This document shows, piece after piece, positions 35,823 to 64,000 of a stretch of DNA of 64,000 nt. The DNA comes from Acidobacteriota bacterium (lineage in GTDB: Bacteria; Acidobacteriota; Polarisedimenticolia; Polarisedimenticolales; JBBIHH01). Under the pieces are notes generated by a model. It made no database searches. It was not told where the DNA came from and saw only the letters and a list, made by a program, of their open reading frames with translations. The stretch covers positions 17,188-81,187 of the forward strand of contig JBBIHH010000007.1 in the NCBI GenBank assembly GCA_037447115.1. Direction: 5' to 3'. A program made the translations under genes and the position numbers. Position 1 is the first letter of the stretch. Each line of letters opens with the position of its first letter.

Positions 35823-35926
35823 GACGGCCGGGGGCAACCACGGGGCGGGGCCGCCCGGAGCGGCGCACGGCGTTTTGCGGCTCCCGGGTCCGGGGTCCGG
35901 CCCGGAGAACGTAGAGGACATACCCC

Positions 35927-47629: not shown

Positions 47630-47632
47630 ACC

Positions 47633-48871: not shown

Positions 48872-48919
48872 GCGGGTGGGGTTTCGAACCGCGAGGATCG
48901 CGAAAGCGAGGGGGTGCGG

Positions 48920-50098: not shown

Positions 50099-50105
50099 GC
50101 GTGTC

Positions 50106-51137
50106 ATGAACGGGGCCCGCGAGCCGCAACGCCGGACGCTGCTCGTCATCGACGACGATCGGGAGACGGCCGCGCTGCTGCGCTCGTGGTTCGCGGGCCA
50201 ACCCTACGAGATTCTGGAAGCCACGGACGCCGAGCAGGGGTTGCGCGCCGCCGAGACCCGTGCGCCCGATCTGATCCTGTTGGATGTGCGCATGCCGGGC
50301 ATGGATGGCCTCGCGGCGGCACGCGTGCTCAAACAGCGCGAGACGACCCGCACCATTCCCGTCATCTTGCTCACCGCGTGCCGCGACGTCCAGGCCAAGG
50401 TGGAGGCCTTCGATGCGGGGGCCGATGACTACGTGACGAAACCCTTCGAGTTCGAAGAAGTGGACGCGCGCATTCGAGCCATGTTGCGCAAGCGCGAGCT
50501 CTATCTGGAACTGGAGCTCGCGGTGAGCGATCTCCAGCGCACGAACGCGAAGCTCGAAGAGCTGGCGATCGTGGACGACAAGACCGGGCTCGCTAACTAC
50601 CGGCAGTTCCGCCGCACCCTCGACGTGGAATGGCTGCGCGCCGAACGCTACGGCAATCCCCTCTCGCTGGTCATGCTCGACCTGGACGACTTCAAACGGA
50701 TCAACGACACCCACGGGCATCTTGTGGGGGACCGTGTGTTGCGCGAGCTTGCCACGCTCGTCGCCGGAGGCGCCCGCGCCACCGACATGGCCGCCCGCTA
50801 CGGGGGGGAGGAGTTCGCCGTCATCCTACCCCACACCGACCGGCCCATGGCCGAACGCGTCGCCGAGCGCATTCGCGACGCGGTGGCGCGTTTCGTGTTC
50901 GTGGAAGGCGAGCAGTCGCTCAAGCTCACGGTGTCCGCCGGTGTCGCGACCTTTCCTTCGTTCGAGGAGGTCGACTCGCCCGACGCCCTCGTGCGCGCGG
51001 CCGACCGCGCCCTCTACGAGGCCAAGCGCGCAGGCAAGAATCGCGTCGTCGCTTACGCCACCGTGCGCCGCGCTAGCGCCCGCACCGGACCCCACGGTCC
51101 CGAACGGCCGCGCCCGGGCCCCACCCTCGAGCATTGA
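50106..51137 (+). CDS. Response regulator-diguanylate cyclase (REC + GGDEF, PleD/WspR-like)
   Basis: LLVIDDDRETA, LILLDVRMPGMDG, DDYVTKPF, a coiled-coil linker, and GGDEF with active site RYGGEEFAV. RATD lies five residues upstream (I-site RxxD). Confidence 0.9.
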   Translation: MNGAREPQRRTLLVIDDDRETAALLRSWFAGQPYEILEATDAEQGLRAAETRAPDLILLDVRMPGMDGLAAARVLKQRETTRTIPVILLTACRDVQAKVEAFDAGADDYVTKPFEFEEVDARIRAMLRKRELYLELELAVSDLQRTNAKLEELAIVDDKTGLANYRQFRRTLDVEWLRAERYGNPLSLVMLDLDDFKRINDTHGHLVGDRVLRELATLVAGGARATDMAARYGGEEFAVILPHTDRPMAERVAERIRDAVARFVFVEGEQSLKLTVSAGVATFPSFEEVDSPDALVRAADRALYEAKRAGKNRVVAYATVRRASARTGPHGPERPRPGPTLEH

Positions 51138-52733: not shown

Positions 52734-53696
52734 TCAGGCGCCGCGGAGCTCGCGGATCGTCTGGATGAAGGTCGACCAGGCCCGTTCGGGCCGCTCGCAG
52801 GCCAGAGCGGACATGGCGGCGCAGGCTTCGAACCCCCAGAAGGCGATGACCTCGATGGCCTGCGCCGCCGCGGCGCGCATACCTCGGGCGATGTCCTCCT
52901 CTCGGCCCGCGGGAATCCGGAAACCTTGGATCCACACGTGCCCGCTCGTGCCGGCGCCCGCCGCGACCTCGGCGACTTCGGCGGCGTAGACCCCGACACA
53001 GGCCTCAGGTGCCTCGCCGCGCAGCGCCCAGAAGGGCGTCGTGCCGAAGCTCGCGAGGCGGGGCGCCCGCGCGCAGGCACGCCACGCGGCGCGGCGCAGG
53101 GGGTCGCCATCGTGCGGGAGCGGACAGACCGCGTTGCGCCCGCCCCGCCGGGCCACCTCGCCGCAGGCCCAGTGAACGAAGGCGAGCACCGCCGCGGCTG
53201 CGGCTGTCGCGTCGGGCTCCAGGGCGCGGCCCGCCTCGGCCGCTTGCTTGCAATGTTCGCAGGCACAAGCCCGGGCCCCCGCGCGAGGCTCGCCGAAGAA
53301 ATGCGGCTCGTCCCAGAACACGGAATCCGCCCCGCTGGCGAGGGCGAACTCGATCCATTCCACCAGGTAGCGCCGGAAGCCGGGGTGGCTGGGGCAGCAG
53401 GCCGGCAGGCGCGCGCCGTCCTGGTCGAGCTGGCACCACTCGGGGTGCTCGAGGGCGACGGCCGTTTCGGCCTCGCCTCCGAAGACCCCTCCCACGCCCC
53501 ACGGATCGAGCCACACCTCGAGGCCGGCGTCCCGGCTGACCTCCACGATGTTCCGCAACGTCCCGCCGTAGTAGCGAAAATCGTTCTCGCTCGCCGCGTG
53601 CACGACGAGGTCGAAGCCCGCCCCGCGCAGCGCCCGCATGTCCTCCCGCACGTGCCGCAGGATCCGGTTGCCGAAGTAGCTCACGGCGAATCGCAC
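52734..53696 (-). CDS. Cys-rich glycoside-hydrolase-like TIM-barrel protein (function unknown)
   Basis: GTG start at 53696. The pattern ...RALRGAGFDLVVH...LEVWLDPW...CCPSHPGFRRYLVEWIEF...VFWDEPHF resembles GH42/GH-like (beta/alpha)8 barrels, but the usual NE catalytic pair is not evident. Confidence 0.45.
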   Translation of the reverse strand: MRFAVSYFGNRILRHVREDMRALRGAGFDLVVHAASENDFRYYGGTLRNIVEVSRDAGLEVWLDPWGVGGVFGGEAETAVALEHPEWCQLDQDGARLPACCPSHPGFRRYLVEWIEFALASGADSVFWDEPHFFGEPRAGARACACEHCKQAAEAGRALEPDATAAAAAVLAFVHWACGEVARRGGRNAVCPLPHDGDPLRRAAWRACARAPRLASFGTTPFWALRGEAPEACVGVYAAEVAEVAAGAGTSGHVWIQGFRIPAGREEDIARGMRAAAAQAIEVIAFWGFEACAAMSALACERPERAWSTFIQTIRELRGA

Positions 53697-53807
53697 GCGA
53701 GCCCCCCTGCGGTCCTCGCTATGCCGCCGACCCGAGGCGCGCCCCGCGTTCGAGCGCGAGTTTGCCGAACGCGATGGGTCGGCTCGGCGTGCCGTCGCGA
53801 CCGCGTC

Positions 53808-54557
53808 TCATCGCCGGCCAAGCTCGGACCAGCCGGCGAAGACCTCGTGCAGGGCCGCTTCCACGGCGTCCACCACGCGGCGGAAGAATTCGCGTGCCTT
53901 GGCTTCGTCGAGCACGGGAGCACCCTCGCCGGCTTGCTCTTCTCGGTCGAGGATGATGCTCGCGGGAAACGGCCGGGCTTGGATTCCCGGTCGCCGCGGC
54001 AGCCGCCGGGCGGTGCGCACGCGCTCGTCCCGCACGAGTTCCGGCGCCACGGCGAGCACCATCGCGGTCTCTTCCACCCCGGCGTGCCCGCTCGCCACCT
54101 CGCCGTAGAGCTCGCGGCTGATGTCGGCGGCGAGGCCCCACCACTCCACCGCCACGGAAAACACCCGCTTCGCCTCCCACAGGCGGTGCACGACGCGGTG
54201 CACTTCCCGGGTCTGCCCCCCGTGCCCGTTGAGCAGCACGATCCTCCCGAAACCGGCGTCGGCGAGCCCTGCCGCCGCCTCGAACAGGTAGGCCTCGAAC
54301 GTCTCCGCCGAGACGGTCGTCGAACCCGGATAAGGCAAGAGAGTGTTCGTCACGCCGTACGGCACCGGGGGTGCAATCAGCCCGTCGAACCGGGGCGCCA
54401 AGTGCCGCGCCATCGCTGCCGGAATCAAATTGTCGGTCCCCAGGGGAATCGCCCCGTGGGCTTCGATCGTTCCCACGGGCACGAAAACGAGATCCGTCTT
54501 TGCCGGCACCCGGTCTCGAAAGCTCAGCCACGAAAGCTCGCTCAGCTCGTAGCTCAT
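53808..54557 (-). CDS. Creatininase-family amidohydrolase
   Basis: ORF 53808..55646 trimmed to ATG 54557 (MSYELSELSW), with an ATGA overlap with the lnt stop. VPVGTIEAHGAIPLGTDN, LLNGHGGQ, HAGVEETAM. Confidence 0.75.
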   Translation of the reverse strand: MSYELSELSWLSFRDRVPAKTDLVFVPVGTIEAHGAIPLGTDNLIPAAMARHLAPRFDGLIAPPVPYGVTNTLLPYPGSTTVSAETFEAYLFEAAAGLADAGFGRIVLLNGHGGQTREVHRVVHRLWEAKRVFSVAVEWWGLAADISRELYGEVASGHAGVEETAMVLAVAPELVRDERVRTARRLPRRPGIQARPFPASIILDREEQAGEGAPVLDEAKAREFFRRVVDAVEAALHEVFAGWSELGRR

Positions 54558-56173
54558 GCTCCTTCCTCTCCGCGTCGACTGGACGCGATCGAGGCCACAC
54601 CGAGCAGCACTATGGCGAGCCACGCCACGAGATCGCCGGTCCGATCGTAGACGGTGAGGTGGTCTGTCAGCGGGACCTCGCGCACGACCACCGCTTCCTG
54701 GAACAGCGGCGTCCAGCCCTCGTAGCGGCCGAGGGGATCCACGAAGCCCGAGATCCCGGTGTTGGCGACGCGCACGATCGCCGTACGGTTCTCGATGGCG
54801 CGCAGGCGCAAGGCGTGCGCCAGGTAAGGTTGGAACACCGTGCGACCGAACCAGGCGTCGTTCGTGATCACCGCCTGGAACTGGGCACCCTCCCGGCGCA
54901 GCCGCCGCGCGAGGTCCCAGTAAAGCTCCTCGTAACACACCAGGACCCCCACGCGCGAGCCCGCCGCGGACAGCACGACCGGCGCCGGCGGTGGGGTGAA
55001 CCCACCGGCGAGCCAGCGCAGCCGCTCCCCTTCCTTTCCCCCGAGCCACCGCCCCAGGACGGGCTCGAAGGGAACTTTCTCGGTGAAGGGCACGAGATAG
55101 ACCTTGGCCGTCCATACGGGTGCGAGCCCCTCCTCCGGTGTCACCACCACCGCGGCATTGTAGAGGTCGTAGTCGCGCGTGCCGCGGACACGAGCGTACT
55201 CCACGCCGGCGAGAATGGGGACGCCGATCTCCCGCGCCAGGGCTTCCACCTCCGGCAGCCGGTAGGTCTCGGGGCGGTCCAGCCAGTGCCGCAGCACCCC
55301 GGGATATGCGGTTTCGGGCCACACGATCACATCCGGGCGCTCGAGTGCCGCCTGCCGTGTCGTGCGTACCAGCACCGCCCACTGCTCGGCGTTCGTCGCG
55401 GGGTCGAGCTTGGTCAGCAGCGGGACATTGGGCTGCACGAGCGCCACGCGCAGCTGCCCCTGGCTCTGGGGCGGGTGCGTCCAGGCCCAGCCAGCGTAGG
55501 CCAGCACGCTGCCCAGCACCCACGCCAGAGCGCAGGCCGGAGTCCGCCAGCTGCGGTCCTTGCGCCGCCGCCAGACCTCGTACGCGAGCCCGTTCACCGC
55601 CAGCATGAACGCCCCGACGCCGTAAGGACCCACGACATCGGCGCATTGCACGAGAAACGGGTAGCGCGCCAGGGAATGGGCCACGTGATCGGCGGTCATG
55701 CGCAGATCACCCCACGTGCGCAGCCACTCGAAGGGCAGCCAGGTGGCGGGCAGCAGCAATCCGAAGCTCCAGCCCGTGCGCCGGCGCAGCCAGCCCAGCC
55801 AAGCCAGCGACACGGCGGCGCACACGGAGAACAGAGCGGCGAGAAGCGCGTACATCGCGATGGCGAGCCAGGAAACCCACACCATCGCGAAGACCCAGTG
55901 CAGGATCGTGCCGTACAGGGCGAGGGCGAAAGCGAATCCCGCGCGCAGCCGCTCGCGGGCACGCGCCCTCGGGTTGGCGTCCAACCAGTGCAGCATCGGC
56001 AAAAAGCCGAGGAGATTGGGCAGCAACAGACCCCAGGGAAAGTAACCCTGGGCGCACACGAACCCGCCGAGCGCGGGAAGCCGCCACGGGCTACGTTGCC
56101 AGTCGGCCGGCCCGGGGACCGGAGCCGCGCTGGGTGCCGCGGCCCCGGGCCTGGCGCTCCGCGCCGCCATCAT
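54554..56173 (-). CDS. lnt: Apolipoprotein N-acyltransferase
   Basis: ORF 54554..57232 trimmed to ATG 56173. It has an N-terminal polytopic membrane domain and a C-N hydrolase domain with VIVWPETA (Glu), KVYLVPFTEKVPF (Lys) and VLVCYEELY (Cys). There is an ATGA overlap with the KAS stop. Confidence 0.85.
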   Translation of the reverse strand: MMAARSARPGAAAPSAAPVPGPADWQRSPWRLPALGGFVCAQGYFPWGLLLPNLLGFLPMLHWLDANPRARARERLRAGFAFALALYGTILHWVFAMVWVSWLAIAMYALLAALFSVCAAVSLAWLGWLRRRTGWSFGLLLPATWLPFEWLRTWGDLRMTADHVAHSLARYPFLVQCADVVGPYGVGAFMLAVNGLAYEVWRRRKDRSWRTPACALAWVLGSVLAYAGWAWTHPPQSQGQLRVALVQPNVPLLTKLDPATNAEQWAVLVRTTRQAALERPDVIVWPETAYPGVLRHWLDRPETYRLPEVEALAREIGVPILAGVEYARVRGTRDYDLYNAAVVVTPEEGLAPVWTAKVYLVPFTEKVPFEPVLGRWLGGKEGERLRWLAGGFTPPPAPVVLSAAGSRVGVLVCYEELYWDLARRLRREGAQFQAVITNDAWFGRTVFQPYLAHALRLRAIENRTAIVRVANTGISGFVDPLGRYEGWTPLFQEAVVVREVPLTDHLTVYDRTGDLVAWLAIVLLGVASIASSRRGEEGA

Positions 56174-57459
56174 GCGGGGGTGAGCACGAGACAGGCGTTG
56201 TGCCCACCGAACCCGTAGGAGAACTTGAGGGACACGGCCGGCCGCGCCTCGAGCGGCCGGTTGGCGACGAGATTCACGTCGCACTCGGGATCGGGGAACT
56301 CGTAGTTGATCGTGGGCGTGAGGATGCCGTGGCGCAGCGAGAGCACGAGCGCGGCGGTCTCCAGCGCCCCCGAAGCACCGATGGCGTGGCCCGTCATGGA
56401 CTTGAGAGCCGTGACGCTGACTTCCGAAAAACGCCGGCCCAGCAGTTTCTTGAAAGCCAGCGTCTCCGTCTTGTCGTTCAAGATGGTGGACGTGCCGTGG
56501 GCGTTGATGTGCTCCACGTCTTCGACGGAGAGGCCCGCCGCGCGCAGCGCGTGCCGGGCGAGGGCGACGATCGTCTCCCCCGTCTCGTCGAGTTGCATCA
56601 TCGAGCCCGCATCGCAGTTGGACGCGTAACCGACCAGCGCGGCATACGGTCGCGCACCGCGCGCTCGCGCGTGGCTCTCCCGCTCGAGAACGAGCACCGC
56701 CGCACCCTCGCCGAGGACGAACCCGTCGCGTTCGCGGTCGAAGGGGCGGCTGGCCCGCTGGGGGTCGTCGTTCCGGGTGGACATCGTGCGCAGCCGGTCG
56801 AAGCCCATCAGCCCGTAGGCGTCGGCGTCTTCGGCGAAACCCTCGGTGCCACCGGCGAGGACGACGTCGGCCTCGCCGTCCCGCAACAGACGCCACCCGT
56901 CGCCGATGGCCATCGTCCCCGCGGCGCACGCCGTGCAGATGGCTTTGCATTCGCCCTGAGCACCGAAACGGATCGCCACCTGTCCGGCCGGCGCATTGGG
57001 AATGAGCATCGGCAAGGCGTAGCGCTTGACTTTGGCCTTGGAGCGGGTCTCGCGCCATGCCGCGTGGGAGACTTCCATCGTCGCCAGCCCCCCGATCCCG
57101 GAACCGACGATCGTGGCCAAACGCCGCCGATCGCAGCCGTCCACGAGCAGTTGATCCCGCTCGTGGGGACTGGGCACGAGCGAAAAGCCCGCGTCCTCGA
57201 GGGCCTCGTGCGCCGCTGCCAGGACGAACCAACTCGTCCGGTCGAGCAGGCTCACGAGCCGGGAGGGGATCCCGGAGGCCACCGGATCGAACGCGCGCAC
57301 CGGGCAGGCGATCTTCGTGGCCAGGTCGCTCTCGGCGACCCAGGAAGAGTCCAGCCGCACCGCTCCCGATCTCCCCTCGAGGCAGCCCCGCCAGAACCCC
57401 TCGCGGTCGTGCCCAATGGGGCTGACGACACCGACTCCCGTGATCACGACCCGTTCCAC
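56170..57459 (-). CDS. Beta-ketoacyl-ACP synthase I/II-like condensing enzyme (FabF-like, orphan context)
   Basis: GTG start at 57459. VVITGVGVVSPIG, active-site Cys in CTACAAGT, and His-His in INAHGTST and KSMTGHAIGASG. No acpP or fab neighbours. Confidence 0.8.
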   Translation of the reverse strand: MERVVITGVGVVSPIGHDREGFWRGCLEGRSGAVRLDSSWVAESDLATKIACPVRAFDPVASGIPSRLVSLLDRTSWFVLAAAHEALEDAGFSLVPSPHERDQLLVDGCDRRRLATIVGSGIGGLATMEVSHAAWRETRSKAKVKRYALPMLIPNAPAGQVAIRFGAQGECKAICTACAAGTMAIGDGWRLLRDGEADVVLAGGTEGFAEDADAYGLMGFDRLRTMSTRNDDPQRASRPFDRERDGFVLGEGAAVLVLERESHARARGARPYAALVGYASNCDAGSMMQLDETGETIVALARHALRAAGLSVEDVEHINAHGTSTILNDKTETLAFKKLLGRRFSEVSVTALKSMTGHAIGASGALETAALVLSLRHGILTPTINYEFPDPECDVNLVANRPLEARPAVSLKFSYGFGGHNACLVLTPA

Positions 57460-57533
57460 TGTCGTGCCCCTCGTCGTCGTGGCCGCGTCCCTATGTCCGC
57501 ATGGAATAAAGACTTCGATGCTATCATGGGGTG

Positions 57534-58109
57534 ATGGGCGGATCCAGCGTGGAGATCGAGGTCAAGCTGCGCTTGCCTTCCGCGGACCATGCGCGACGGC
57601 GCCTCGCGGCACTCGGCGCCCGCGAGATGCGTCGGCGCGTCTTCGAGGACAACCTCGTCTACGATCTGCCCTCCGGAACCCTGGAACGGGAAGGCCGCCT
57701 CCTGCGCCTGCGACGCGCCGGCAACGATGCGTGGCTGACCTACAAGGAGCCCGCTCACGACGACCTCCGGCACAAGGTGCGACGGGAATTCGAGACTCCG
57801 ATCGCGGATCCGGTGGCCCTCGAACGCATCCTGGCAGCGCTCGGATTCCACGTCACCTACCGCTACCAGAAGTATCGCACCGTTTACCGGCTCGAGGACT
57901 TGGAGCTCGCCGTGGACGAAACGCCCCTCGGCTGCTTCCTCGAGCTCGAGGGCACGCCCGCGGCGATCGAGCGAGCCGCACGCGCCCTCGGCTTCGCGGA
58001 GGGCGACTACATCCGCGAAACCTACCGCGACCTGCACCGGACGGCGATCGCGCAGGGCACCGCCTCGCCCGGCGATCTCGTCTTTCCCCCGGATGGGCGC
58101 CCCGTCTGA
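57534..58109 (+). CDS. CYTH-domain protein (class IV adenylate cyclase / triphosphatase family)
   Basis: ExExK signature VEIEVKL at the N-terminus, LRLRR...LTYK and FLELE. The start is ATG 57534 or GTG 57531. Confidence 0.75.
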   Translation: MGGSSVEIEVKLRLPSADHARRRLAALGAREMRRRVFEDNLVYDLPSGTLEREGRLLRLRRAGNDAWLTYKEPAHDDLRHKVRREFETPIADPVALERILAALGFHVTYRYQKYRTVYRLEDLELAVDETPLGCFLELEGTPAAIERAARALGFAEGDYIRETYRDLHRTAIAQGTASPGDLVFPPDGRPV

Positions 58110-58145
58110 GCCACCGCGCGCCATGGCGTATCCCGAGGGTCGCCC

Positions 58146-59219
58146 ATGAGGGCCATGCTCCTCAGCGCCGGCCGTGGCGAGCGCATGGGGCCGCTCACGT
58201 GGACCACGCCGAAGCCGCTGCTGCCCGTTCTGGGCCGACCCTTGGCCGCGCTCGTCCTGGAACGCCTCGCCGCAGCCGGGATCCGGCACGTGGTGGCGAA
58301 CCTGCACCATCGGGCCCGCGAGCTGGAGCACGCTCTCGCCGCCGCCGCCCCGGAGCATCTGCGGCTCGGCTTTTCCTACGAGCCCACGTTGCAGGGCACC
58401 GCAGGAGCGCTGCGCCATGCGGCGGCGCAGCTGCGCGGAGCGGAAACGCTGCTCGTCGTCAACGCGGACAGCCTGGCCGACATCCGCCTGGCCGAGGTCC
58501 GCCGCGCGCACGAGGCTTCGGGAGCTCGGGTCACCCTCGTGCTCGCGGCGCACCGCCCGGGCGACACGCCCGTGTGGGTCGGCCCCCAGCGGAGGATCGT
58601 CGCATTCGGCGCCCTGCCTCGGTCCGGGCCGGACGGCCTCGCCGGACCTTACAGTTTCACCGGCTGGCAGCTTTTCGACGCGGCGCTGTTGGAGTGCATC
58701 GGCGAGGGGCCGCGCGACCTAGTACGCGACCTCTACACGCCGCTGCTCGGCGAAAGTCGTGTGGCGGCGTGGATCCACGAGGGTTACTGGTGGGAATTCG
58801 GCACCCCGGAACGCTACCTTCGGGGTCAGCTGGAGTTGCTCGCCATGACCGCCGACGCGCGAGCGCGCATCGTTCCGGGCGTGCGGTGCCGGGAGCAAGG
58901 GGGCGCGGTCGTCTGCCTCGGCGAGCGCGTCCGCTGCCCCGGGGCGAAGCTCGCAGGCGGTGTCGTTCTCGGCGATGGCGCGCAAGTGGAAACGGGCAGT
59001 GAGCTGGAGGACGCGGTCGTGCTCCCGCACGCTCGCATCGGGAGAGGGTGCCGGCTGCGAAGGGCGATCGTGGGGGCGGGGACCGAACTGGCCGACGGCC
59101 TCCTCGCCGAGGAAACCATCGTCGCGCACGCGCCTTCCGGGACCGCGGCGCTGGCGGATCCTCGCACGATCCTGCGGCAAGGCCTGCTCTGGCGTCCCCT
59201 GGAAGAGGCGACGCCATGA
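58146..59219 (+). CDS. Sugar-1-phosphate nucleotidyltransferase with C-terminal left-handed beta-helix
   Basis: MLLSAGRGERMGPLTWTTPKPLLPV (GxGxR pyrophosphorylase loop), EPTLQGTAGAL, and a C-terminal hexapeptide-like segment. The specificity is unknown. Confidence 0.75.
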   Translation: MRAMLLSAGRGERMGPLTWTTPKPLLPVLGRPLAALVLERLAAAGIRHVVANLHHRARELEHALAAAAPEHLRLGFSYEPTLQGTAGALRHAAAQLRGAETLLVVNADSLADIRLAEVRRAHEASGARVTLVLAAHRPGDTPVWVGPQRRIVAFGALPRSGPDGLAGPYSFTGWQLFDAALLECIGEGPRDLVRDLYTPLLGESRVAAWIHEGYWWEFGTPERYLRGQLELLAMTADARARIVPGVRCREQGGAVVCLGERVRCPGAKLAGGVVLGDGAQVETGSELEDAVVLPHARIGRGCRLRRAIVGAGTELADGLLAEETIVAHAPSGTAALADPRTILRQGLLWRPLEEATP

Positions 59220-60232
59220 GCCGTGCGTTGCGCCCGGCGCTGCGCCCGCTGCTCGAGCGTGCCTTCCCCGGCGCGAGGGTGGAGGTCGTGCCGGGCGATG
59301 CCTCCACACGGGCCTTTTTCCGCCTGCGCCTGCCCGCGGGGCAGTCCCGCATTCTGATGGATTACGGCAAACCGTTCACCGGGGACACGGACGACATCCG
59401 CCTGGCTCGGCTTTTCCGCAGCGCGGGTCTTCCCGTGGCGCGCGTGCTCGACGCCTGGCCCGAGGCCGGCTGCCTGATTTTGGAGGATCTTGGCGAATTG
59501 ACCCTCGAGCGGGCCCTGCTCCAACTCGATTCCCGCGATCCCGCGGCAGGCCGCCTCCGCCAGACGCTTTACACCCAGGCCGTGACGCTCGCCGCGGCGC
59601 TCGCCACACAGGGCACGGCGGCGCTGGCGCGGTCGCCCTGCGCCGGCGGTCCGGCGCTGGACGCGGCGCGCTTGCGGTTCGAGATGGATTTTTTCCTGCG
59701 CCACTGGGCCGGCGACCTCCACGGACGCAGGCCGCCCGACAGCGTCCGCGGGGTGCTGTACGCCCTCGCGGACGCCGCCGCGCGCACGCCGAAGCGCGTC
59801 CTGTGCCACAGGGATCTGCACGCCCGCAACCTGATCCTTCGCCCCGACGGTTCGCTCGCCATGGTGGACATCCAGGACGCTCGCTGGGGCCCGGACACCT
59901 ACGACATCGCCTCCCTGCTGCGGGACGCATACGTGGAGCTCGAGGAGGGCGAAGTGGAACTCTTTTTTTCCCTTTACCTGGAGCGCTTGGGGCAGGCCGC
60001 GGACGCGGCCATCCGTGAGCGCTTTGCGGTCGTCGGAACGCAGCGCATGATCAAGGCCCTCGGCACCTTCGGCTACCAGATGGCGGTCCTGGGACGTCTG
60101 CGTTATGCGGACGCCGCCGTACGCACCGTGCGCAGGCTGCGGGCGCTCGGTGCGGGCCCTCCGGTGGCGCAAGAAGCGGTGCGCGCCCTCGCCGCCGTTG
60201 GACTGCTGGAGGAGCCTGCCGGCGGCGGCTAG
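59216..60232 (+). CDS. Aminoglycoside-phosphotransferase-fold kinase (AmgK-like sugar kinase candidate)
   Basis: ATG 59216 overlaps the upstream stop (ATGA). Catalytic loop CHRDLHARNLIL and metal-binding VDIQDARWGP. The substrate is not determinable from sequence alone. Confidence 0.65.
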   Translation: MSRALRPALRPLLERAFPGARVEVVPGDASTRAFFRLRLPAGQSRILMDYGKPFTGDTDDIRLARLFRSAGLPVARVLDAWPEAGCLILEDLGELTLERALLQLDSRDPAAGRLRQTLYTQAVTLAAALATQGTAALARSPCAGGPALDAARLRFEMDFFLRHWAGDLHGRRPPDSVRGVLYALADAAARTPKRVLCHRDLHARNLILRPDGSLAMVDIQDARWGPDTYDIASLLRDAYVELEEGEVELFFSLYLERLGQAADAAIRERFAVVGTQRMIKALGTFGYQMAVLGRLRYADAAVRTVRRLRALGAGPPVAQEAVRALAAVGLLEEPAGGG

Positions 60233-60368
60233 GCCACAAACCGGATCGAAGTTCTCCCCTCCTCGCTCGTCCCGGGGCGATCGAGCAGTTATAGTGGAAC
60301 TGCCCGGCGCGGGCGCCGGGTAGCTTGGGTGTCGCGAGGCGCGTGCCGGCGGCGCAAGAGGTGAGACG

Positions 60369-60944
60369 ATGAAGCGATGGGCATTCCTCCTGGCGGTGGC
60401 CACGGGTTCGATGTTGTGGGGTGTTTCGGCGGGTTCCGCGGGGGAGCACGCCTACGTCGGGAGCAAGAACTGCAAGAAATGCCACCTGCAGCAGCACAAG
60501 TCCTGGTCCGAGACCAAGATGGCTCAGGCCTTCGAACTACTGAAGCCAGGCGTGGCCGCCGAGGCCAAGCAGAAGGCAGGTTTCGATCCGGGCAAGGACT
60601 ACACCAGGGACGCGCAGTGCCTTCCGTGCCACACGACCGGCTACGGCAAGCCCGGTGGCTTCGTGGATATCGAAACCACGCCCGACCTCGCGGGCATCGG
60701 TTGCGAGGAGTGCCACGGCCCCGGGGGCACGTACACCCAGGAAGGCTACATGACGCTCAAGAACAAGGAGTACAAGAAGGCCGACCTCGTCGCCGTGGGG
60801 CTCGTGGACACCGTCTCGGCGAAACAGTGCCTCCACTGCCATGACAAGGAGAAAAACCCCTTCGCCCCCGCCGAGCCCTTCGACTTCGAGAAGATGAAAG
60901 AGAAAGATTTGCACCAGCGATATCCGCTGAAGTACAAGCACTGA
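60369..60944 (+). CDS. Periplasmic tetrahaem cytochrome c (cytochrome c554-like family)
   Basis: Signal peptide, then four CXXCH motifs: CKKCH, CLPCH, CEECH and CLHCH. YVGSKNCKKCHLQQHKSW is typical of the c554-type family. Confidence 0.8.
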   Translation: MKRWAFLLAVATGSMLWGVSAGSAGEHAYVGSKNCKKCHLQQHKSWSETKMAQAFELLKPGVAAEAKQKAGFDPGKDYTRDAQCLPCHTTGYGKPGGFVDIETTPDLAGIGCEECHGPGGTYTQEGYMTLKNKEYKKADLVAVGLVDTVSAKQCLHCHDKEKNPFAPAEPFDFEKMKEKDLHQRYPLKYKH

Positions 60945-60970
60945 CCGCCGCTTCGGCCCCTGCCCGACGC

Positions 60971-62824
60971 CTAGCGCGCTTCGACCCCGGGCTCCGCCTG
61001 CCGGCGCTCGTGCGCCCGGCCCGGAGCGGAGCGTCCGGTGAGCCACGCCGGGTCCATGGGGTAGACCAGCGGATCGAAGATGACGAAGTAAAAGTGCCAC
61101 ACGACAATGGCCAGGCTCGCCAGCACCGCTTCGTAGAAATGGACCACGGTGGCGAGGTCCGTGATCCATTTGGGAAACCAGCGCAGGGCTGCTGTCTCGA
61201 ACCACAGGACGAAACCGGTCGCCGCCATGATCGCGGAACCCCACCACAAGGCGATGTACTCGATCTTCTCCGGGTAACCCACGACGGGCGTCCTGGGAAG
61301 CGAGGCTCGACGGCCTAGCCAGTAGGCGATCCGTTCCCGCAGCTCGCGCAGGTCCTCGCGCCCCGGACGCATGCGGGCGATGCAGCGTCGCGCGCGCCGG
61401 CTCGAGACCGCGTGGAGGGCATGGCCCAGCAACGAAATCAGCAGCGCGACCGCGGCCACGCGGTGCACGAGGCCACGCATGTCCGTCGTCCCGCCCCACC
61501 GTGTCAGCGGCCGGGTCCACCACTGCTCGGGATACGTCAAGGCGAAGCCGCTGTACGCGAGCGCGACGAAGGACAGCGCGATGCCTGCGTGGGCCAGCCG
61601 GAAACCCGGCGACATCCGGCCCGCTGCGCGCACGGTGGCCGGCACGCTGGGGCGGCGAAGGAGCTTGCGCAGCAGGTCGAGGCCGTTGTGCAGGATCATC
61701 GCCCCGATCACGAACACGATGAGGACCCGATAGATCATCCTCGCCCCGCGCACCAGCGGGTGCGCCGAGGCTTCCTGGAGCACGTGCACGGGCCCCAGTT
61801 CGAAGCGCTGCCCCGCACCCGGATGGCAGCGGCCGCAGGTGGCGGCCAGGTTGTCGGGATGCACGTGAGACCGGGGATCGCTCGAGGGCAGGATGTCGTG
61901 GATCCCATGGCAGGAGGCGCAGTTGGCGGCGGTCACCACCCCCGTCTCCACCGCGAGGCCGTGGTAGCTCTCCTCGTAGGCGGGCACCCGGTCCGCAGGG
62001 ATGTCGTACTTCTCGGCTAGCCGCACGTCGGCGTGGCATCGCTCGCACGTCCGCTTCGGGATGTTCGTCGCATAGACGGGGGAAGCCGGATCGCGCGGCG
62101 AGAGGATCCTGTGCTCTCCGTGGCAGTCGGTGCAGACGGGCGCTTCCCGCAGCCCCCGCGCGGCGGCGCGTCCGTGGACACTCTGGCGGTACGCCTCGCT
62201 CACCTCCCGGTGGCAGCCGCCGCACGTCTCCGGAACCCGGAGGCGAAAAATGGAGGATTCCGGATCCGACGGGGGCAGAATCTCGTGACTGTCGTGACAG
62301 TCGCTGCAGGTGGCGCCCGGTTTCCCTTCCTCGAGGGCACGGGCGTGCACGCTGGCGGCGTACGCTTCCAGAGGCCGCGCGACGAGAATACCGAATTTCT
62401 CGGCCAGAGCTGGATCGGAGTGGCAGCGCCCGCACGTGGCCCCGATGCGTCGCGCATGCGTCGCGGAGCGCGGATCCGAAGAGGGCAGCAGCGCGTGGAT
62501 CGAACCGTGGCAATCGGCGCAGCCCGGTGCCTCGACGACCCCGGAGGCCCGGGCTCGGCCGTGGACGCCCCTCGCGAAAGCTGCGGTCACCTCGTCGTGG
62601 CACGTCTCGCAGCGGGCCTGGGCCTCCGGCGATTCGTGCGGGACGGCCGCGGCGCCCGCGTGGCAGTCCACGCACTCGAGAAAACCGTGCACCGTCTGCT
62701 GCAGCGCTTCCGCCGGAACGTCGTGGCACTCGTGGCAAGGCTCAGCGGCGGCGAGCGCGCTGCCTTGCAGCCCGCAGGCGATCACGAGGCCCCACCACCC
62801 ACCGCTCTTCCGAGCCAGTCGCAT
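60971..62824 (-). CDS. Multihaem cytochrome c (11 CXXCH) fused to a C-terminal b-type cytochrome membrane domain (CbcL-like architecture)
   Basis: ORF 60971..62857 trimmed to ATG 62824 (MRLARKSGGWWGLVIACGL). The 11 CXXCH motifs are CHECH, CVDCH, CETCH, CADCH, CGRCH, CSDCH, CGGCH, CTDCH, CERCH, CASCH and CGRCH. The C-terminal ~250 aa contains several hydrophobic helices with embedded His residues. Confidence 0.75.
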   Translation of the reverse strand: MRLARKSGGWWGLVIACGLQGSALAAAEPCHECHDVPAEALQQTVHGFLECVDCHAGAAAVPHESPEAQARCETCHDEVTAAFARGVHGRARASGVVEAPGCADCHGSIHALLPSSDPRSATHARRIGATCGRCHSDPALAEKFGILVARPLEAYAASVHARALEEGKPGATCSDCHDSHEILPPSDPESSIFRLRVPETCGGCHREVSEAYRQSVHGRAAARGLREAPVCTDCHGEHRILSPRDPASPVYATNIPKRTCERCHADVRLAEKYDIPADRVPAYEESYHGLAVETGVVTAANCASCHGIHDILPSSDPRSHVHPDNLAATCGRCHPGAGQRFELGPVHVLQEASAHPLVRGARMIYRVLIVFVIGAMILHNGLDLLRKLLRRPSVPATVRAAGRMSPGFRLAHAGIALSFVALAYSGFALTYPEQWWTRPLTRWGGTTDMRGLVHRVAAVALLISLLGHALHAVSSRRARRCIARMRPGREDLRELRERIAYWLGRRASLPRTPVVGYPEKIEYIALWWGSAIMAATGFVLWFETAALRWFPKWITDLATVVHFYEAVLASLAIVVWHFYFVIFDPLVYPMDPAWLTGRSAPGRAHERRQAEPGVEAR

Positions 62825-62934
62825 CGCGCACTCCCCGCGAGCCGCCCATGGGACCACAATGCTGCGCCAGACTCAAGGGACCGAAGGCCCCCTCAACTCG
62901 CGACGCCTGGTCGAGCGGTCCCGCAGCGGCGCGC

Positions 62935-64000
62935 TCAGGGCTGCAGCCAATCGAGGATCCGCGGCGAGGGCTCCTCGAGCGCTAGAATCGTGTGGCAGGT
63001 GAGGCAATCCTGGGAGATCGTTTCGCCCCCGTCGTTCGCCATCAGGCCGTCGTGGCAGCGAAAGCAACCCTCGAAATGCAGATGTCCGAGGTGATTGGGG
63101 TAGGTGCCCCAGTAGACCTTCATCGAGGGAAACACATTCTCGCGATAGATTCCGGTCAACCGTTCGATGGCTCGTTCGATCTCCTCGGTCTTTGACGCGT
63201 AGAGATCGGGGTAGCGTTCGCGGTAGAAAGTCTCGAGATGGGAGCGGATGCCGCGGGAGGCCTCTTCGTACGACGCCGCCTCGCGCAGCAGCGCCCGCAA
63301 TCCCTCGCGGCGGATGTACGGTAGCTCGCGCGGGATCCATCCCATCGCGAGCGCCCGGTCCAGCGCCTCTTGCGGCATCTCGAAGGTGTGCGTCGGGCGG
63401 TTGTGGCAGTCCACGCAGTCCATGACCCGCCACCCTTCCAGCTCCGCCGGCGGGTCCTGGCCCGGGCGGCGGTAGCGCCGAGGAACTCCATCCGCGACGG
63501 TCAACTCGACCTCGTAGATTCGTTCCCGGGTCGGGTCGGAACGGTAGCGCACGGTAACCTGCGGATCCACGTGCCAGTGAATTCCGTGCGAGCGGAACCC
63601 CAGGAGTCCGCCCACGCGCAAGAGCAGGACCGTCTTCACCTCGGTGTTCGCTTCGTCTTCCAGGAAGCGCGTGATGACCTTCAACCGATCGCCGTAGAAC
63701 TTCACCGGCCAGTGGCATTGCTCGCACGTCTCCCGCGCGGGCCGCAGGTTCTCGATCGGCGTCGGGATCGGCCGCGGGTAGAGATCGAAGGTCGTCGCCA
63801 CGACCTGCCACGCGCCGGAGAGCTTCGATTGGACGAACCAGCTCGCGCCGGGGCCGATGTGACACTCGACGCACTTCACGTGCGCGTGGGGGGACCGCTG
63901 GTACACGCCGTACTCCGGGTGCATCACGCTGTGGCACGCTTGCCCGCAGAATTCGACGCTATCCATGAACTCCACCGCTTTGTAGGTGGCGACAGACAGG
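62935..64000 (-). CDS. NapC/NirT-like multihaem cytochrome c, N-terminus beyond the window edge
   Basis: The reading frame stays open to nt 64000 (..LSVATYKAVEFMDSVEFCGQACHSVM), so the GTG at 63975 is probably internal. Motifs: CGQACH (CX3CH), CVECH, CEQCH, CVDCH, CFRCH and CLTCH. Confidence 0.7.
   Translation of the reverse strand, partial: LSVATYKAVEFMDSVEFCGQACHSVMHPEYGVYQRSPHAHVKCVECHIGPGASWFVQSKLSGAWQVVATTFDLYPRPIPTPIENLRPARETCEQCHWPVKFYGDRLKVITRFLEDEANTEVKTVLLLRVGGLLGFRSHGIHWHVDPQVTVRYRSDPTRERIYEVELTVADGVPRRYRRPGQDPPAELEGWRVMDCVDCHNRPTHTFEMPQEALDRALAMGWIPRELPYIRREGLRALLREAASYEEASRGIRSHLETFYRERYPDLYASKTEEIERAIERLTGIYRENVFPSMKVYWGTYPNHLGHLHFEGCFRCHDGLMANDGGETISQDCLTCHTILALEEPSPRILDWLQP

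What the first reader, a model, noticed from the sequence alone, without database searches (positions are those of the whole stretch)
60369..64000. A multihaem cytochrome cluster has a CbcL-type cytochrome b/c fusion and a NapC/NirT-like protein, with no catalytic reductase in view
Seen: three adjacent genes carry haem-c motifs. There are 4 motifs in 60369..60944 (plus strand), 11 in 60971..62824 (minus strand), and 5 canonical plus one CX3CH in 62935..>64000 (minus strand, N-terminus off the window). The 11-haem protein continues into a C-terminal multi-pass membrane domain with His residues inside hydrophobic helices (ILHNGLD, RLAHAGIAL, VHRVAAVALLISLLGHALH, VVHFYEAVLASLAIVVWHFYF). Established: a periplasmic multihaem c domain fused to a HydC/FdnI-type dihaem cytochrome b is the architecture of Geobacter CbcL. 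CbcL is an inner-membrane quinol oxidase used for low-potential extracellular acceptors, and NapC/NirT proteins are the other classic quinol dehydrogenases. Inference: two different quinol-oxidising modules plus a soluble tetrahaem carrier may form an electron-export unit. Its terminal acceptor or OM conduit is not encoded in the visible sequence. The haem count (11, against 9 in CbcL as I recall) and the lineage differ from the described system.
Basis: partly seen in the sequence, partly recalled or inferred. Interest (0 to 1): 0.65.

Follow-up and report, generated by a model that had tools for sequence, protein, structure and literature searches.

The report
ImcH–CbcL cytochrome operon with Rieske/b complex
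The window ends inside a five-gene respiratory operon from a probable Acidobacteriota genome that puts three different quinone-reacting membrane modules side by side; each part belongs to a known family, but I found no description of this recurrent combination.

Summary
In detail: 4, 11 and 5+1 haem-c motifs sit in three adjacent genes, and only one other CXXCH occurs in the whole 64 kb.

- **Gene B** is an 11-haem cytochrome c fused to an FdnI-type dihaem cytochrome b. It fits the CbcL/MtrH/MtoC family.
- **Gene C** is not a plain NapC/NirT protein. It is an ImcH-type cytochrome with three transmembrane helices, a CX3CH first haem, and haem spacing and key residues in register with Geobacter ImcH.
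- **Gene A** is a cytochrome c554 homologue. It lies tail-to-tail with B, and its homologues occur as stand-alone genes in unrelated contexts, so its link to the cluster is weak.

An identical public contig extends 10.3 kb past the window. Upstream of C, tightly packed on the same strand, are Rieske, cytochrome b and a 9-haem cytochrome. There is no reductase and no porin.

Across 78 related loci, C-like genes adjoin B-like genes in about 43. MtrAB-like conduits occur in at least 18 and Rieske/b modules in 20.

The most likely role is a multi-gear quinol:cytochrome c hub that feeds periplasmic or extracellular acceptors. The direction of electron flow is not shown. These are known families in a new operon arrangement, of moderate interest.

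The parts
60369..60944 (+). Gene A: a 191-aa periplasmic tetrahaem cytochrome of the cytochrome c554 family, with a Sec signal peptide (MKRWAFLLAVATGSMLWGVSAGSAG). It is probably a general soluble electron carrier. Its link to the operon is uncertain.
   Evidence: It has 4 CXXCH. PF13435 scores E 2.6e-26, 92.8 bits. Nitrosomonas c554 (PDB 1bvb) matches at E 2.3e-28. The c554 equivalog NF043010 scores only 107 bits against a cut-off of 400. Homologues at 58-66% identity are stand-alone genes in unrelated neighbourhoods.
60945..60970 (.). A 26-bp spacer between the convergent stop codons of A and B.
   Evidence: Read from the sequence. No terminator-like site was detected here.
60971..61777 (-). 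Gene B, C-terminal membrane domain (residues ~350-617). It has five predicted TM helices: one linker helix plus a four-helix FdnI/HydC-type dihaem cytochrome b. The putative axial His are H412 and H577 (cytoplasmic-side haem) and H454 and H562 (periplasmic-side haem).
   Evidence: PF01292 scores E 9.9e-13, 48.7 bits, against a cut-off of 30.1. The AF2 model has pLDDT 82, with helices 356-389, 406-430, 449-474, 517-541 and 552-582. The top Foldseek PDB hit is 1kqf_C, E 6.6e-4, TM 0.70. A profile search against the PDB finds 1kqf_C at E 5.3e-4. hhalign pairs H412/H454/H562/H577 with FdnI H18/H57/H155/H169. All four are invariant in 53 homologues.
61778..62824 (-). Gene B, N-terminal part (residues 1-349): a signal peptide followed by a periplasmic 11-haem cytochrome c domain.
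   Evidence: It has 11 CXXCH, at residues 30, 51, 72, 102, 131, 173, 201, 231, 260, 302 and 330 of the 617-aa protein. All are invariant or at least 90% conserved in 53 homologues. P0001 is the identical public protein.
62825..62934 (.). The 110-bp C-B intergenic spacer, inside the operon.
   Evidence: No promoter-like or terminator-like site was detected. C-like and B-like genes are adjacent and co-directional in many related loci.
62935..64000 (-). Gene C, the C-terminal 354 of 469 codons: an ImcH-type inner-membrane hexahaem cytochrome (CX3CH plus 5 CXXCH). The missing 115 N-terminal residues (three TM helices) lie beyond the window, to the equivalent of coordinate 64344.
   Evidence: The motifs were counted. 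The full-length identical protein is P0122. It has three hydrophobic segments, 11-38, 43-70 and 97-124, and C133-x3-C137-H138. The motif positions 133/158/207/310/427/447 compare with 132/156/205/311/428/448 in GSU3259. K174, Q180 and Y189 match ImcH K173, Q179 and Y188. PF03264 scores 26.1 bits against a cut-off of 24.1.

Best explanation
The window ends inside a five-gene respiratory operon on the minus strand. Its gene order is Rieske protein, cytochrome b, a membrane-anchored 9-haem cytochrome c, an ImcH-type hexahaem cytochrome (C), and a CbcL-type fusion of an 11-haem cytochrome c with a dihaem cytochrome b (B). Only C (in part) and B lie in the window.

**Shown here**
- The identity and architecture of each protein.
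- The operon structure in this genome.
- Recurrence of the C-B pair, of Rieske/b-9-haem modules and of MtrAB-type outer-membrane conduits in relatives.

**Inferred**
The operon is an inner-membrane hub between the (mena)quinone pool and periplasmic multihaem cytochromes. It offers three routes with different energy yields.
1. The Rieske/b complex would oxidise quinol by a Q cycle. This gives the highest H+/e- and needs a fairly high-potential acceptor.
2. The ImcH-type protein would oxidise quinol at the periplasmic face near its CX3CH haem. This is electroneutral, as reported for Geobacter ImcH.
3. The CbcL-type protein would oxidise quinol at an FdnI-like site near the cytoplasmic-side b haem. 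It would pass electrons outward through two b haems into its 11 c haems. This route conserves no energy but works toward low-potential acceptors.

Electrons would then pass to soluble periplasmic cytochromes, possibly the neighbouring c554-like protein A. From there they would go to acceptors or conduits encoded elsewhere in this genome. In many relatives an MtrA/MtrB-like porin-cytochrome pair is encoded next door.
For: **Architecture**
- Haem motifs.
- B: PF01292; AF2 model with 5 TM helices; Foldseek top hit FdnI 1kqf_C; profile hit to 1kqf_C; four axial His aligned and invariant.
- C: the full protein P0122 has 3 TM helices plus CX3CH, with motif spacing and K/Q/Y residues in register with GSU3259.

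**Operon**
- L083 is identical to window 52935..64000 (11,066 nt, 0 mismatches) and extends 10,344 nt further.
- Upstream of C it encodes Rieske (PF00355), cytochrome b (PF00033/PF00032) and a 579-aa 9-haem cytochrome.
- The gaps between genes are 40, -4, 4 and 110 nt.

**Recurrence over 78 related loci from many phyla**
- A C-like gene adjoins a B-like gene in about 43, and is present in the locus in 49.
- Rieske/b occurs in 20.
- After Rieske-b-9-haem, the next gene is C-like (7, counting this contig), a 16-haem NapC/NirT-like protein (4) or B-like (3).
- A DmsE/MtrA-family decahaem (TIGR03508, 266 and 252 bits against a cut-off of 192) plus an MtrB/PioB porin (PF11854, E 6.5e-98) or an unassigned 851-aa outer-membrane protein occurs in at least 18.
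- No catalytic reductase family is among the conserved neighbours.

**Mechanistic precedents**
- ImcH is reported to be electroneutral and to reduce PpcA (bioRxiv 10.1101/2023.05.03.539133).
- CbcL is proposed to release protons on the cytoplasmic side. It gives a lower growth yield and is gated by potential although constitutively expressed (bioRxiv 10.1101/2022.08.31.506072).
Against: - Nothing here shows the direction of electron flow. The FdnI fold natively reduces quinone, and MtoC-type family members are assigned to Fe(II) oxidisers.
- No outer-membrane conduit, terminal reductase or oxidase lies in the 74 kb known for this genome.
- I could not align B and C directly with the Geobacter proteins. 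Their sequences were not obtainable, so orthology rests on architecture, motif register and published tables.
- The quinone type is unknown.
- Co-transcription is inferred from spacing only.
- The AF2 model of C was poor (pLDDT 63).
- The synteny survey covers only the best 80 of at least 583 matching loci in species-representative genomes. It also relies on my own six-frame ORF clustering.
Confidence: 0.55

Rival explanations
1. Inward flow (electron uptake or lithotrophy). The CbcL-type protein works in the native FdnI direction. It takes electrons from periplasmic or extracellular donors through its 11 c haems and two b haems, and reduces quinone at the cytoplasmic face. This is a pmf-generating half-loop. 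The co-encoded Rieske/b-9-haem complex then re-oxidises the quinol toward a high-potential acceptor chain (oxidase or nitrate). The operon would thus hold both the entry to and the exit from the quinone pool.
For: - The b domain is FdnI-like, with all four ligands conserved. FdnI reduces menaquinone with periplasmic electrons (established knowledge; also stated in the CbcL preprint).
- The same protein family includes MtoC of Fe(II) oxidisers, and Zhong & Shi conclude the family may work in both directions.
- Class-I monohaem cytochromes (PF13442) often sit between the porin and the C-like gene in relatives. By my own knowledge, not tested here, such cytochromes typically donate to oxidases.
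- A quinol-consuming Rieske/b complex sits in the same operon.
Against: - ImcH-type proteins have so far been tied only to quinol oxidation.
- The only cultured-isolate genome among the 80 scanned loci is a Geothrix. The Geothrix species discussed in the ImcH literature, G. fermentans, is listed with bacteria that transfer electrons outward to extracellular acceptors.
- No oxidase, Cyc2 or MtoAB is near this locus.
Confidence: 0.2
2. General periplasmic respiration rather than extracellular electron transfer. The three modules feed soluble periplasmic cytochromes, which serve ordinary periplasmic reductases or oxidases encoded elsewhere (nitrite, N-oxides, sulfur compounds, cbb3/caa3). The association with porin-cytochrome conduits in some relatives is one of several outlets.
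For: - No conduit lies within 74 kb in this genome.
- Only about a quarter of related loci carry an MtrAB-like pair.
- 10 of 47 loci with at least 6 kb on both flanks carry none of the C-like gene, an MtrAB-like pair or Rieske/b.
- c554-like homologues sit next to a Mo-oxidoreductase/NrfD cluster or haem-copper oxidase genes.
- By my own knowledge, not tested here, NapC/NirT-type relatives such as CymA serve many periplasmic reductases.
Against: - 11 to 21 haems on the CbcL-type proteins, and the repeated adjacency of MtrA/MtrB-like and OmcA/MtrC-like genes, are typical of long-range electron transfer.
- No reductase gene is a conserved neighbour.
Confidence: 0.2
3. One reading: A (c554-like), B and C alone form a self-contained export unit in which the tetrahaem protein is the dedicated shuttle.
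For: - A is adjacent.
- c554-domain proteins recur near C- or B-like genes in some relatives: 6 of 83 loci, and a 374-aa c554-domain gene lies directly upstream of the C homologue in L086/L087.
- ImcH is reported to reduce a small soluble multihaem cytochrome, PpcA.
Against: - A is convergent to B, so it is a separate transcript.
- Four of four sampled homologues at 58-66% identity stand alone in unrelated contexts.
- The operon actually includes Rieske/b and a 9-haem cytochrome that this model omits.
Confidence: 0.15

Closest known systems
Geobacter sulfurreducens CbcL (GSU0274) and the wider CbcL/MtrH/MtoC family (Zacharoff 2016; Zhong & Shi 2018, PMC6295460)
   Same: One polypeptide carries a signal peptide, a periplasmic multihaem c domain and a C-terminal HydC/FdnI-type dihaem b. 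It has no FeS or Mo partner, and its length is similar (617 against 619 aa). The published family spans 3-23 haems and 15 phyla. It already lists 11-haem members and 19-21-haem members of about 930 aa, like those in the loci studied here.
   Different: - 11 haems against 9.
- The membrane part is shorter, with 5 helices in the AF2 model against 6 TMHMM helices reported for CbcL.
- It is encoded directly after an imcH-type gene and a Rieske/b module, whereas no imcH-cbcL gene linkage is reported in the papers I read (own knowledge: they are separate loci in Geobacter).
- Direct identity to GSU0274 was not measured.
Geobacter ImcH (GSU3259) and its 6-haem homologues (e.g. Anaeromyxobacter A2cp1_2287, 468 aa)
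   Same: - Three N-terminal TM helices.
- A CX3CH first haem right after TM3.
- Motif positions in register: 133/158/207/310/427/447 against 132/156/205/311/428/448.
- K174, Q180 and Y189 match ImcH K173, Q179 and Y188.
- A NapC/NirT/NrfH-like core.
   Different: - It lacks the seventh, C-terminal haem of Geobacter ImcH. That makes it the 6-haem type already catalogued in Acidobacteria, Gemmatimonas and Anaeromyxobacter.
- It is translationally packed behind a Rieske/b-9-haem module and followed by a cbcL-type gene.
- Zhong & Shi reported no mtrAB next to imcH, whereas several loci here show this (L004, L007, L030, L036, L046, L047, L054).
E. coli formate dehydrogenase-N gamma subunit FdnI (PDB 1kqf_C)
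   Same: A four-helix dihaem b fold with all four axial His in equivalent helices and depths.
   Different: - About 15-20% identity.
- An extra N-terminal TM helix ties it to a covalently fused multihaem c domain, in place of the FdnGH partners.
- The presumed working direction is the opposite one.
Nitrosomonas europaea cytochrome c554 (CycA, PDB 1bvb/1ft5)
   Same: A tetrahaem periplasmic protein. It aligns over about 140 residues at E 2.3e-28, with all four CXXCH aligned.
   Different: - It scores below the equivalog cut-off (107 against 400 bits).
- No hao or cM552 context is present.
- Homologues are scattered stand-alone genes.
NapC/NirT/NrfH/CymA quinol dehydrogenases
   Same: The membrane-proximal haem region of C matches PF03264 and TIGR03153.
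   Different: C has 3 TM helices and 6 haems, against 1 TM helix and 4-5 haems. Its first motif is CX3CH. It scores far below the NrfH and NapC equivalog cut-offs.
Rieske/cytochrome b complexes with multihaem c subunits (e.g. those described in anammox bacteria; my own knowledge)
   Same: Rieske plus cytochrome b is followed by a membrane-anchored multihaem cytochrome in place of c1.
   Different: Here the module is followed in the same operon by ImcH-type and CbcL-type quinol dehydrogenases. There is no HAO-like or NAD(P)-linked subunit.
MtrAB/MtoAB porin-cytochrome conduits
   Same: In relatives, a DmsE/MtrA-family decahaem plus an MtrB/PioB porin lies directly beside the C-B pair.
   Different: It is not present in the 74 kb known for this genome.

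Membership tests
CbcL/MtrH/MtoC fused bc-cytochromes | N-terminal signal peptide and a periplasmic multihaem c domain (3-23 CXXCH in the published family) | tested here: met
   11 CXXCH follow a signal-like N-terminus. The motifs are conserved in 53 homologues.
CbcL/MtrH/MtoC fused bc-cytochromes | C-terminal HydC/FdnI-type cytochrome b domain in the same polypeptide | tested here: met
   PF01292 scores 48.7 bits against a cut-off of 30.1. Foldseek finds 1kqf_C at E 6.6e-4, TM 0.70. A profile search finds 1kqf_C at E 5.3e-4.
CbcL/MtrH/MtoC fused bc-cytochromes | Conserved His ligands for b-type haem in the TM helices | tested here: met
   H412, H454, H562 and H577 align with FdnI H18, H57, H155 and H169. 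Its ligand numbering checks out, and the matched range agrees with the PDB profile hit. All four His are invariant.
CbcL/MtrH/MtoC fused bc-cytochromes | Demonstrable sequence relationship to GSU0274, Rfer_4073 or Daro_1404 | not tested
   The reference sequences could not be obtained with these tools. Only the published motif and TM tables were compared.
Geobacter CbcL proper (orthologue of GSU0274) | Nine haems, and a role as a low-potential (at or below -0.1 V) menaquinol oxidase | tested here: not met
   The haem count is 11, not 9. The function cannot be tested in silico.
ImcH family | Three N-terminal transmembrane helices | tested here: met
   Hydropathy segments at 11-38, 43-70 and 97-124. 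AF2 helices at 12-36, 43-81 and 96-129. GSU3259 has TM helices at 13-35, 45-67 and 100-122.
ImcH family | Atypical CX3CH haem motif immediately after TM3 | tested here: met
   C133-GQA-C137-H138. It is invariant in 38 and in 48 homologues.
ImcH family | Haem-motif spacing in register with GSU3259 | tested here: met
   Positions 133/158/207/310/427/447 compare with 132/156/205/311/428/448. The seventh motif (486) is absent, as in the catalogued 6-haem homologues.
ImcH family | Conserved Gln distal ligand of haem 1 and nearby Lys/Tyr (Q179, K173, Y188 in GSU3259) | tested here: met
   Q180, K174 and Y189 lie at a constant +1 offset. Q180 and K174 are at least 90% conserved. The match rests on register, not on a direct alignment to GSU3259.
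Classic NapC/NirT/NrfH (CymA-like) | Single TM anchor and a tetra- or pentahaem domain, scoring above the family cut-offs | tested here: not met
   C has 3 TM helices and 6 haems. TIGR03153 scores 52.7 bits against a cut-off of 134.2, and there is no NapC hit. The Pfam N-terminal-region model just passes, at 26.1 against 24.1 bits.
Cytochrome c554 (CycA of nitrifiers) | Tetrahaem c554 fold or sequence | tested here: met
   PF13435 scores 92.8 bits. PDB 1bvb matches at E 2.3e-28.
Cytochrome c554 (CycA of nitrifiers) | Equivalog-level similarity and an HAO/cM552 gene context | tested here: not met
   NF043010 scores 107 bits against a cut-off of 400. No hao gene lies in the 74 kb. Homologues occur in unrelated contexts.
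Rieske/cytochrome b complex (beyond the window, L083) | Adjacent Rieske 2Fe-2S and cytochrome b genes | tested here: met
   PF00355 on the 153-aa product and PF00033/PF13631/PF00032 on the 388-aa product. Both are on DNA identical to the window over 11,066 nt.
MtrAB-type porin-cytochrome conduit | DmsE/MtrA decahaem plus an MtrB/PioB barrel at this locus | tested here: not met
   It is absent from the window and from the 10.3-kb extension. It is present beside the pair in at least 18 of 78 related loci.

The most novel reading that the evidence does not exclude
The ImcH-type and CbcL-type cytochromes may not be free-standing alternatives, as in Geobacter. They may be stoichiometric partners of the Rieske/b-9-haem complex. 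The supporting observations are the 4-nt gap between the 9-haem gene and C, and the fact that a NapC/NirT-like or CbcL-like gene follows the module in 14 of 17 cases. The result would be a single inner-membrane supercomplex with three quinone sites. Such a complex could shift coupling stoichiometry with acceptor potential without transcriptional control. Alternatively it could run a quinone-based loop or bifurcation between the P-side and N-side sites.
Probability: 0.15. Interest if true: 0.75.

Novelty: new variant of a known kind. Interest (0 to 1): 0.42.

Why it matters
ImcH and CbcL are among the recommended marker genes for calling extracellular electron transfer in metagenomes (mBio 2026, PMC12977616). 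In Geobacter they are described as separate, alternative exits from the menaquinone pool, tuned to different redox potentials.

This work shows something different in Acidobacteriota and many other phyla. The two types are commonly adjacent and co-directional, often follow a Rieske/cytochrome b-multihaem module, and often lie next to MtrAB-like conduits.

If the three modules really are co-expressed gears with different energy yields, that would give a compact, testable model. It would explain how uncultured soil and sediment bacteria match respiration to acceptors of varying potential, such as humics and Fe or Mn minerals.

It also warns against reading imcH or cbcL hits as independent pathway markers. 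They often come as a single unit.

Tried and rejected
- **Contig look-ups.** Exact-protein look-ups for A and B found nothing. Only the full-length C protein, P0122, retrieved an overlapping contig.
- **Cluster look-up.** It gave no names or accessions for the source.
- **Genome scan.** The source genome is not among the species representatives. The best match was 61% identity, a Candidatus Polarisedimenticolaceae MAG. The lineage is therefore only 'probably Acidobacteriota'.
- **PDB sequence search.** phmmer with the b domain alone found no FdnI. A profile was needed.
- **PDB entry 28pb_A.** I considered that this 278-aa 'Cytochrome c' might be the CbcL c domain. Its haem spacing does not match GSU0274, so I dropped the idea.
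- **AF2 model of C.** It was too poor in the haem domain (pLDDT 63), so I ran no fold search on it.
- **Signals and RNA.** The promoter/terminator scan gave nothing usable, and Rfam found nothing in the window.
- **Literature.** Searches found no description of an imcH-cbcL-Rieske/b operon. The library is incomplete, so this is weak evidence of novelty.
- **Rejected readings.**
  - C is not a plain NapC/NirT protein.
  - A is not an HAO-linked c554.
  - No reductase lies just past the window edge.

Full report
**1. The observation**

I translated the three ORFs and counted haem motifs in all six frames of the window.

| Gene | Coordinates | Length | Haem-c motifs |
|---|---|---|---|
| A | 60369..60944 (+) | 191 aa | 4 CXXCH |
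| B | 60971..62824 (-) | 617 aa | 11 CXXCH |
| C | 62935..>64000 (-) | 354 codons in the window | 5 CXXCH plus CGQACH |

The remaining 60 kb holds one CXXCH in six frames, so this is a true cytochrome cluster. A and B are convergent, with stops 26 bp apart. C and B are co-directional with a 110-bp gap that shows no terminator-like site. The rest of the window is housekeeping: a dcw cluster with Mur ligases, FtsA and FtsZ, plus LigA, EPSP synthase, FabF and Lnt. Rfam finds nothing.

**2. Gene B**

- **Family hits.** Pfam gives Ni_hydr_CYTB (PF01292) at E 9.9e-13, 48.7 bits, above the 30.1-bit cut-off. Multihaem c models cover the N-terminal half. NCBIfam's formate dehydrogenase gamma model hits weakly (E 2.7e-9).
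- **Family size and conservation.** The family is very large: 7,840 of 8,000 scored candidates pass E 1e-3, and the closest non-self relatives are 61% identical. In 53 homologues all 11 CXXCH motifs are conserved, as are H379, H412, H454, H468, H471, H562 and H577.
- **Structure.** An AF2 model (pLDDT 82) shows five TM helices after the haem domain: 356-389, 406-430, 449-474, 517-541 and 552-582.
- **Fold and profile matches.** The only significant PDB fold match is FdnI (1kqf_C), at E 6.6e-4, probability 1.00 and target-normalised TM 0.70 over 213 columns. A profile of the family also finds 1kqf_C by sequence, at E 5.3e-4, profile positions 410-585 on chain residues 12-173.
- **Axial ligands.** hhalign against FdnI pairs H412, H454, H562 and H577 with the known axial ligands H18, H57, H155 and H169. 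Its ligand numbering is reproduced.
- **Topology.** Topology is consistent with FdnI. With the c domain in the periplasm, H412 and H577 lie toward the cytoplasm and H454 and H562 toward the periplasm.

That test fails to refute: B has the CbcL architecture.

**3. Gene C**

The protein search returned the identical full-length product, P0122 of 469 aa. The 115 residues missing from the window form three hydrophobic helices, followed immediately by C133-x3-C137-H138.

Zhong & Shi 2018 (PMC6295460) define the ImcH family by exactly these features: three TM helices, an atypical CX3CH next to the membrane domain, and 5-9 further CXXCH. Their Table S3 allows a position-by-position comparison.

| Protein | Length | Haem-motif positions | TM helices |
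|---|---|---|---|
| GSU3259 (Geobacter ImcH) | 507 aa | 132, 156, 205, 311, 428, 448, 486 | 13-35, 45-67, 100-122 |
| Anaeromyxobacter A2cp1_2287 | 468 aa | 134, 158, 207, 309, 425, 445 | 13-35, 50-72, 104-123 |
| C (P0122) | 469 aa | 133, 158, 207, 310, 427, 447 | 11-38, 43-70, 97-124 (hydropathy) |

The ImcH biochemistry preprint (10.1101/2023.05.03.539133) names H137 and Q179 as the ligands of haem 1, and K173 and Y188 as conserved pocket residues. C has H138, Q180, K174 and Y189 at a constant +1 offset. Q180 and K174 are at least 90% conserved in 48 homologues of 39-60% identity.

Classic NapC/NirT/NrfH membership is not met. C has 3 TM helices and 6 haems, and it scores 52.7 bits on NrfH against a 134.2-bit cut-off. 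C is therefore an ImcH-type protein of the already catalogued 6-haem kind. The AF2 model of C was too poor to use beyond the three helices.

**4. Gene A**

A is a clear cytochrome c554 homologue: PF13435 at 92.8 bits and PDB 1bvb at E 2.3e-28. It is not an equivalog, scoring 107 bits against a 400-bit cut-off.

Its family of about 190-aa proteins is common in Acidobacteriota and Thermoanaerobaculia. Four homologues at 58-66% identity are stand-alone genes in unrelated contexts:
- beside a Mo-oxidoreductase/NrfD cluster;
- beside carotenoid genes;
- beside a histidine kinase and response regulator;
- convergent with COX1/COX2.

In the B-centred survey a c554-like gene is nearby in only 6 of 83 loci. 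A larger c554-domain gene does precede the C homologue in L086 and L087. A is best seen as a general periplasmic carrier that may, but need not, serve this operon.

**5. Beyond the window edge**

The look-up with P0122 returned L083, a 22.9-kb Logan contig.

- The reverse complement of L083 is identical to window 52935..64000 (11,066 nt, 0 mismatches) and continues 10,344 nt further.
- The mapping is: window coordinate = 52935 + (21410 - L083 coordinate).
- Upstream of C on the same strand lie three genes:
  - a 579-aa 9-haem cytochrome with a C-terminal TM anchor (L083 8257-9996, ending 4 nt before C);
  - a 388-aa cytochrome b (7094-8260, overlapping the 9-haem gene by 4 nt);
  - a 153-aa Rieske protein (6592-7053).
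- Further upstream there is a 151-bp gap, then an unassigned 753-aa helical protein and PmbA/TldD-like genes.
- The operon is therefore Rieske - cytochrome b - 9-haem c - C - B.
- No reductase, porin or further cytochrome lies in the extension.
- The 9-haem protein shares the repeated CxxCHG..H...P..CGxCH unit of B's c domain, and it clusters with that domain.

**6. Comparative context**

A scan of species-representative genomes found at least 583 loci encoding relatives. The best 80 were kept. They come from Acidobacteriota (many classes, including a cultured Geothrix), Woeseiaceae, Binatia, NC10, Omnitrophota, Elusimicrobia, KSB1, Zixibacteria, Gemmatimonas and others.

I clustered six-frame ORFs from all loci and removed shadow ORFs. 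The counts below are over the 78 loci that have a main B-type gene.

| Feature | Loci |
|---|---|
| C-like gene directly adjacent to B | about 43 |
| C-like gene somewhere in the locus | 49 (31 of the 47 loci with at least 6 kb on both sides) |
| Rieske plus cytochrome b present | 20 |
| Decahaem plus outer-membrane protein pair | at least 18 (15 of them also carry C) |

- The figure of about 43 is 36 scored by the script plus 7 that were mis-scored because of over-long ORF calls. Most of these C-like genes are upstream and co-directional, as in the window.
- After Rieske-b-9-haem, the next co-directional gene is C-like (7 cases, counting this contig), a 16-haem NapC/NirT-like protein (4) or B-like (3).
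- The decahaems pass the DmsE/MtrA model cut-off: 266 and 252 bits against 192.
- One barrel type is MtrB/PioB (PF11854, E 6.5e-98). The other, about 851 aa, matches no family.
- Complete chains occur in L020, L025, L028 and L055, in the order MtrA-like, porin, monohaem c, Rieske, b, 9-haem, C, B.
- No catalytic reductase family appears among the conserved neighbours.
- As a side check, at least 11 contig lengths coincide between the top 120 B and top 120 C homologues. This is consistent with frequent co-location.

**7. Mechanism**

What is shown is the architectures, the operon and the recurrent neighbourhoods. What is inferred follows from the known families.

- **ImcH.** It is reported to oxidise menaquinol electroneutrally and to pass electrons to a small periplasmic cytochrome.
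- **CbcL.** It is argued to release protons on the cytoplasmic side, because its b domain is of the Fdn/Hyd type. It gives about half the growth yield, and it is switched off by high potential although constitutively made (10.1101/2022.08.31.506072).
- **Rieske/b complexes.** They conserve the most energy but need a higher-potential acceptor (established knowledge).

An operon that co-expresses all three would give three 'gears' between the quinone pool and periplasmic cytochromes. The gear in use would be set by thermodynamics or protein-level gating rather than by transcription. I rate this outward (quinol-oxidising) hub at about 0.55.

The main rival is inward flow. The FdnI fold natively reduces quinone, and MtoC-type family members belong to Fe(II) oxidisers. 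A quinol-consuming Rieske/b complex in the same operon would complete such a chain. I rate this at about 0.2.

A third reading is a general periplasmic respiratory branch without extracellular transfer. It is also open (about 0.2), because this genome shows no conduit in 74 kb.

**8. Comparison with the known, and novelty**

Each protein is a member of a described family:
- CbcL/MtrH/MtoC, spanning 3-23 haems and 15 phyla;
- ImcH, found in 12 phyla;
- cytochrome c554.

The 11-haem and 6-haem forms were already tabulated in 2018. Porin-multihaem clusters in Acidobacteriota have also been noted, most recently in a 2026 peat preprint that does not mention ImcH or CbcL.

What I did not find described is:
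- the conserved imcH-type/cbcL-type gene pair;
- its fusion to a Rieske/b-9-haem module;
- its adjacency to mtrAB-like genes. Zhong & Shi explicitly reported no mtrAB next to imcH.

I therefore rate this a new variant of a known kind, with moderate interest (0.42). The literature library is incomplete, and I could not align B and C directly to the Geobacter proteins.

Noticed in passing
L061:2511-5066 (also L019-L021, L036, L046, L047, L054, L056, L063, L065): An ~851-aa predicted outer-membrane protein with no Pfam or NCBIfam match. It occupies exactly the MtrB/PioB position: after a DmsE-family decahaem and before monohaem c, the ImcH-like gene and the CbcL-like gene. It is seen in at least 11 Terriglobia/Acidobacteriota loci and is possibly an unclassified conduit barrel.
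   Followed up: partly
L005, L008, L031, L077 (e.g. L075:12664-14430): Where no ImcH-like gene follows Rieske-b-9-haem, a ~588-aa 16-haem protein with a NapC/NirT-like N-terminus (PF03264, E 1.8e-8) takes its place. The Rieske/b module therefore nearly always carries a second membrane-anchored multihaem partner.
   Followed up: partly
L002, L003, L008-L010, L012, L018, L025, L028, L043, L058, L084, L086: A second, much larger CbcL-type paralogue (19-21 haems, ~930-1100 aa, ~30% identical to B, b domain retained) is often encoded next to the 11- or 13-haem form. It is sometimes divergent and sometimes lies between the C-like and B-like genes.
   Followed up: partly
L058:11873-14930, L060, L068, L069: Downstream of B-like genes lies a triad: a 10-haem cytochrome with a c554-like N-terminus and a C-terminal TM anchor, a 4Fe-4S protein, and an HmcC/NrfD-like membrane subunit (NF045714, E 4e-85). 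This would be a further quinone-reactive module.
   Followed up: partly
L035:6076-7269 with neighbours; L057, L031, L079, L080: A 397-aa protein with no family match, ending in ...YRW (barrel-like), is paired with a 13-haem cytochrome upstream of B-like genes in KSB1, Kryptoniota, Bacteroidota and Gemmatimonas loci.
   Followed up: no
window 60971..61777 (B residues H379-N380, H468, H471): Invariant His/Asn in the extra first TM helix, and two invariant His at the cytoplasmic end of TM3, are not FdnI haem ligands. They are candidates for a quinone or proton site, or for a third cofactor contact.
   Followed up: no
L083:4179-6440 (beyond the window, upstream of the Rieske gene): A 753-aa helical protein with two hydrophobic segments and no Pfam hit. 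It is separated from the Rieske gene by 151 bp and preceded by two PmbA/TldD-like genes. Any relation to the operon is unknown.
   Followed up: no
window 31733..51137 and 52935..60232: The cytochrome operon is embedded in core housekeeping DNA. This comprises a dcw cluster (Mur ligases, FtsA, FtsZ), FabF, Lnt, creatininase-like, CYTH, and an NTP-transferase/APH pair resembling MurU/AmgK. Coding GC3 in the cytochrome genes (0.83-0.85) falls within the 0.80-0.91 range of the other called ORFs. The APH/NTP-transferase assignment to MurU/AmgK is my reading of the Pfam hits only.
   Followed up: partly
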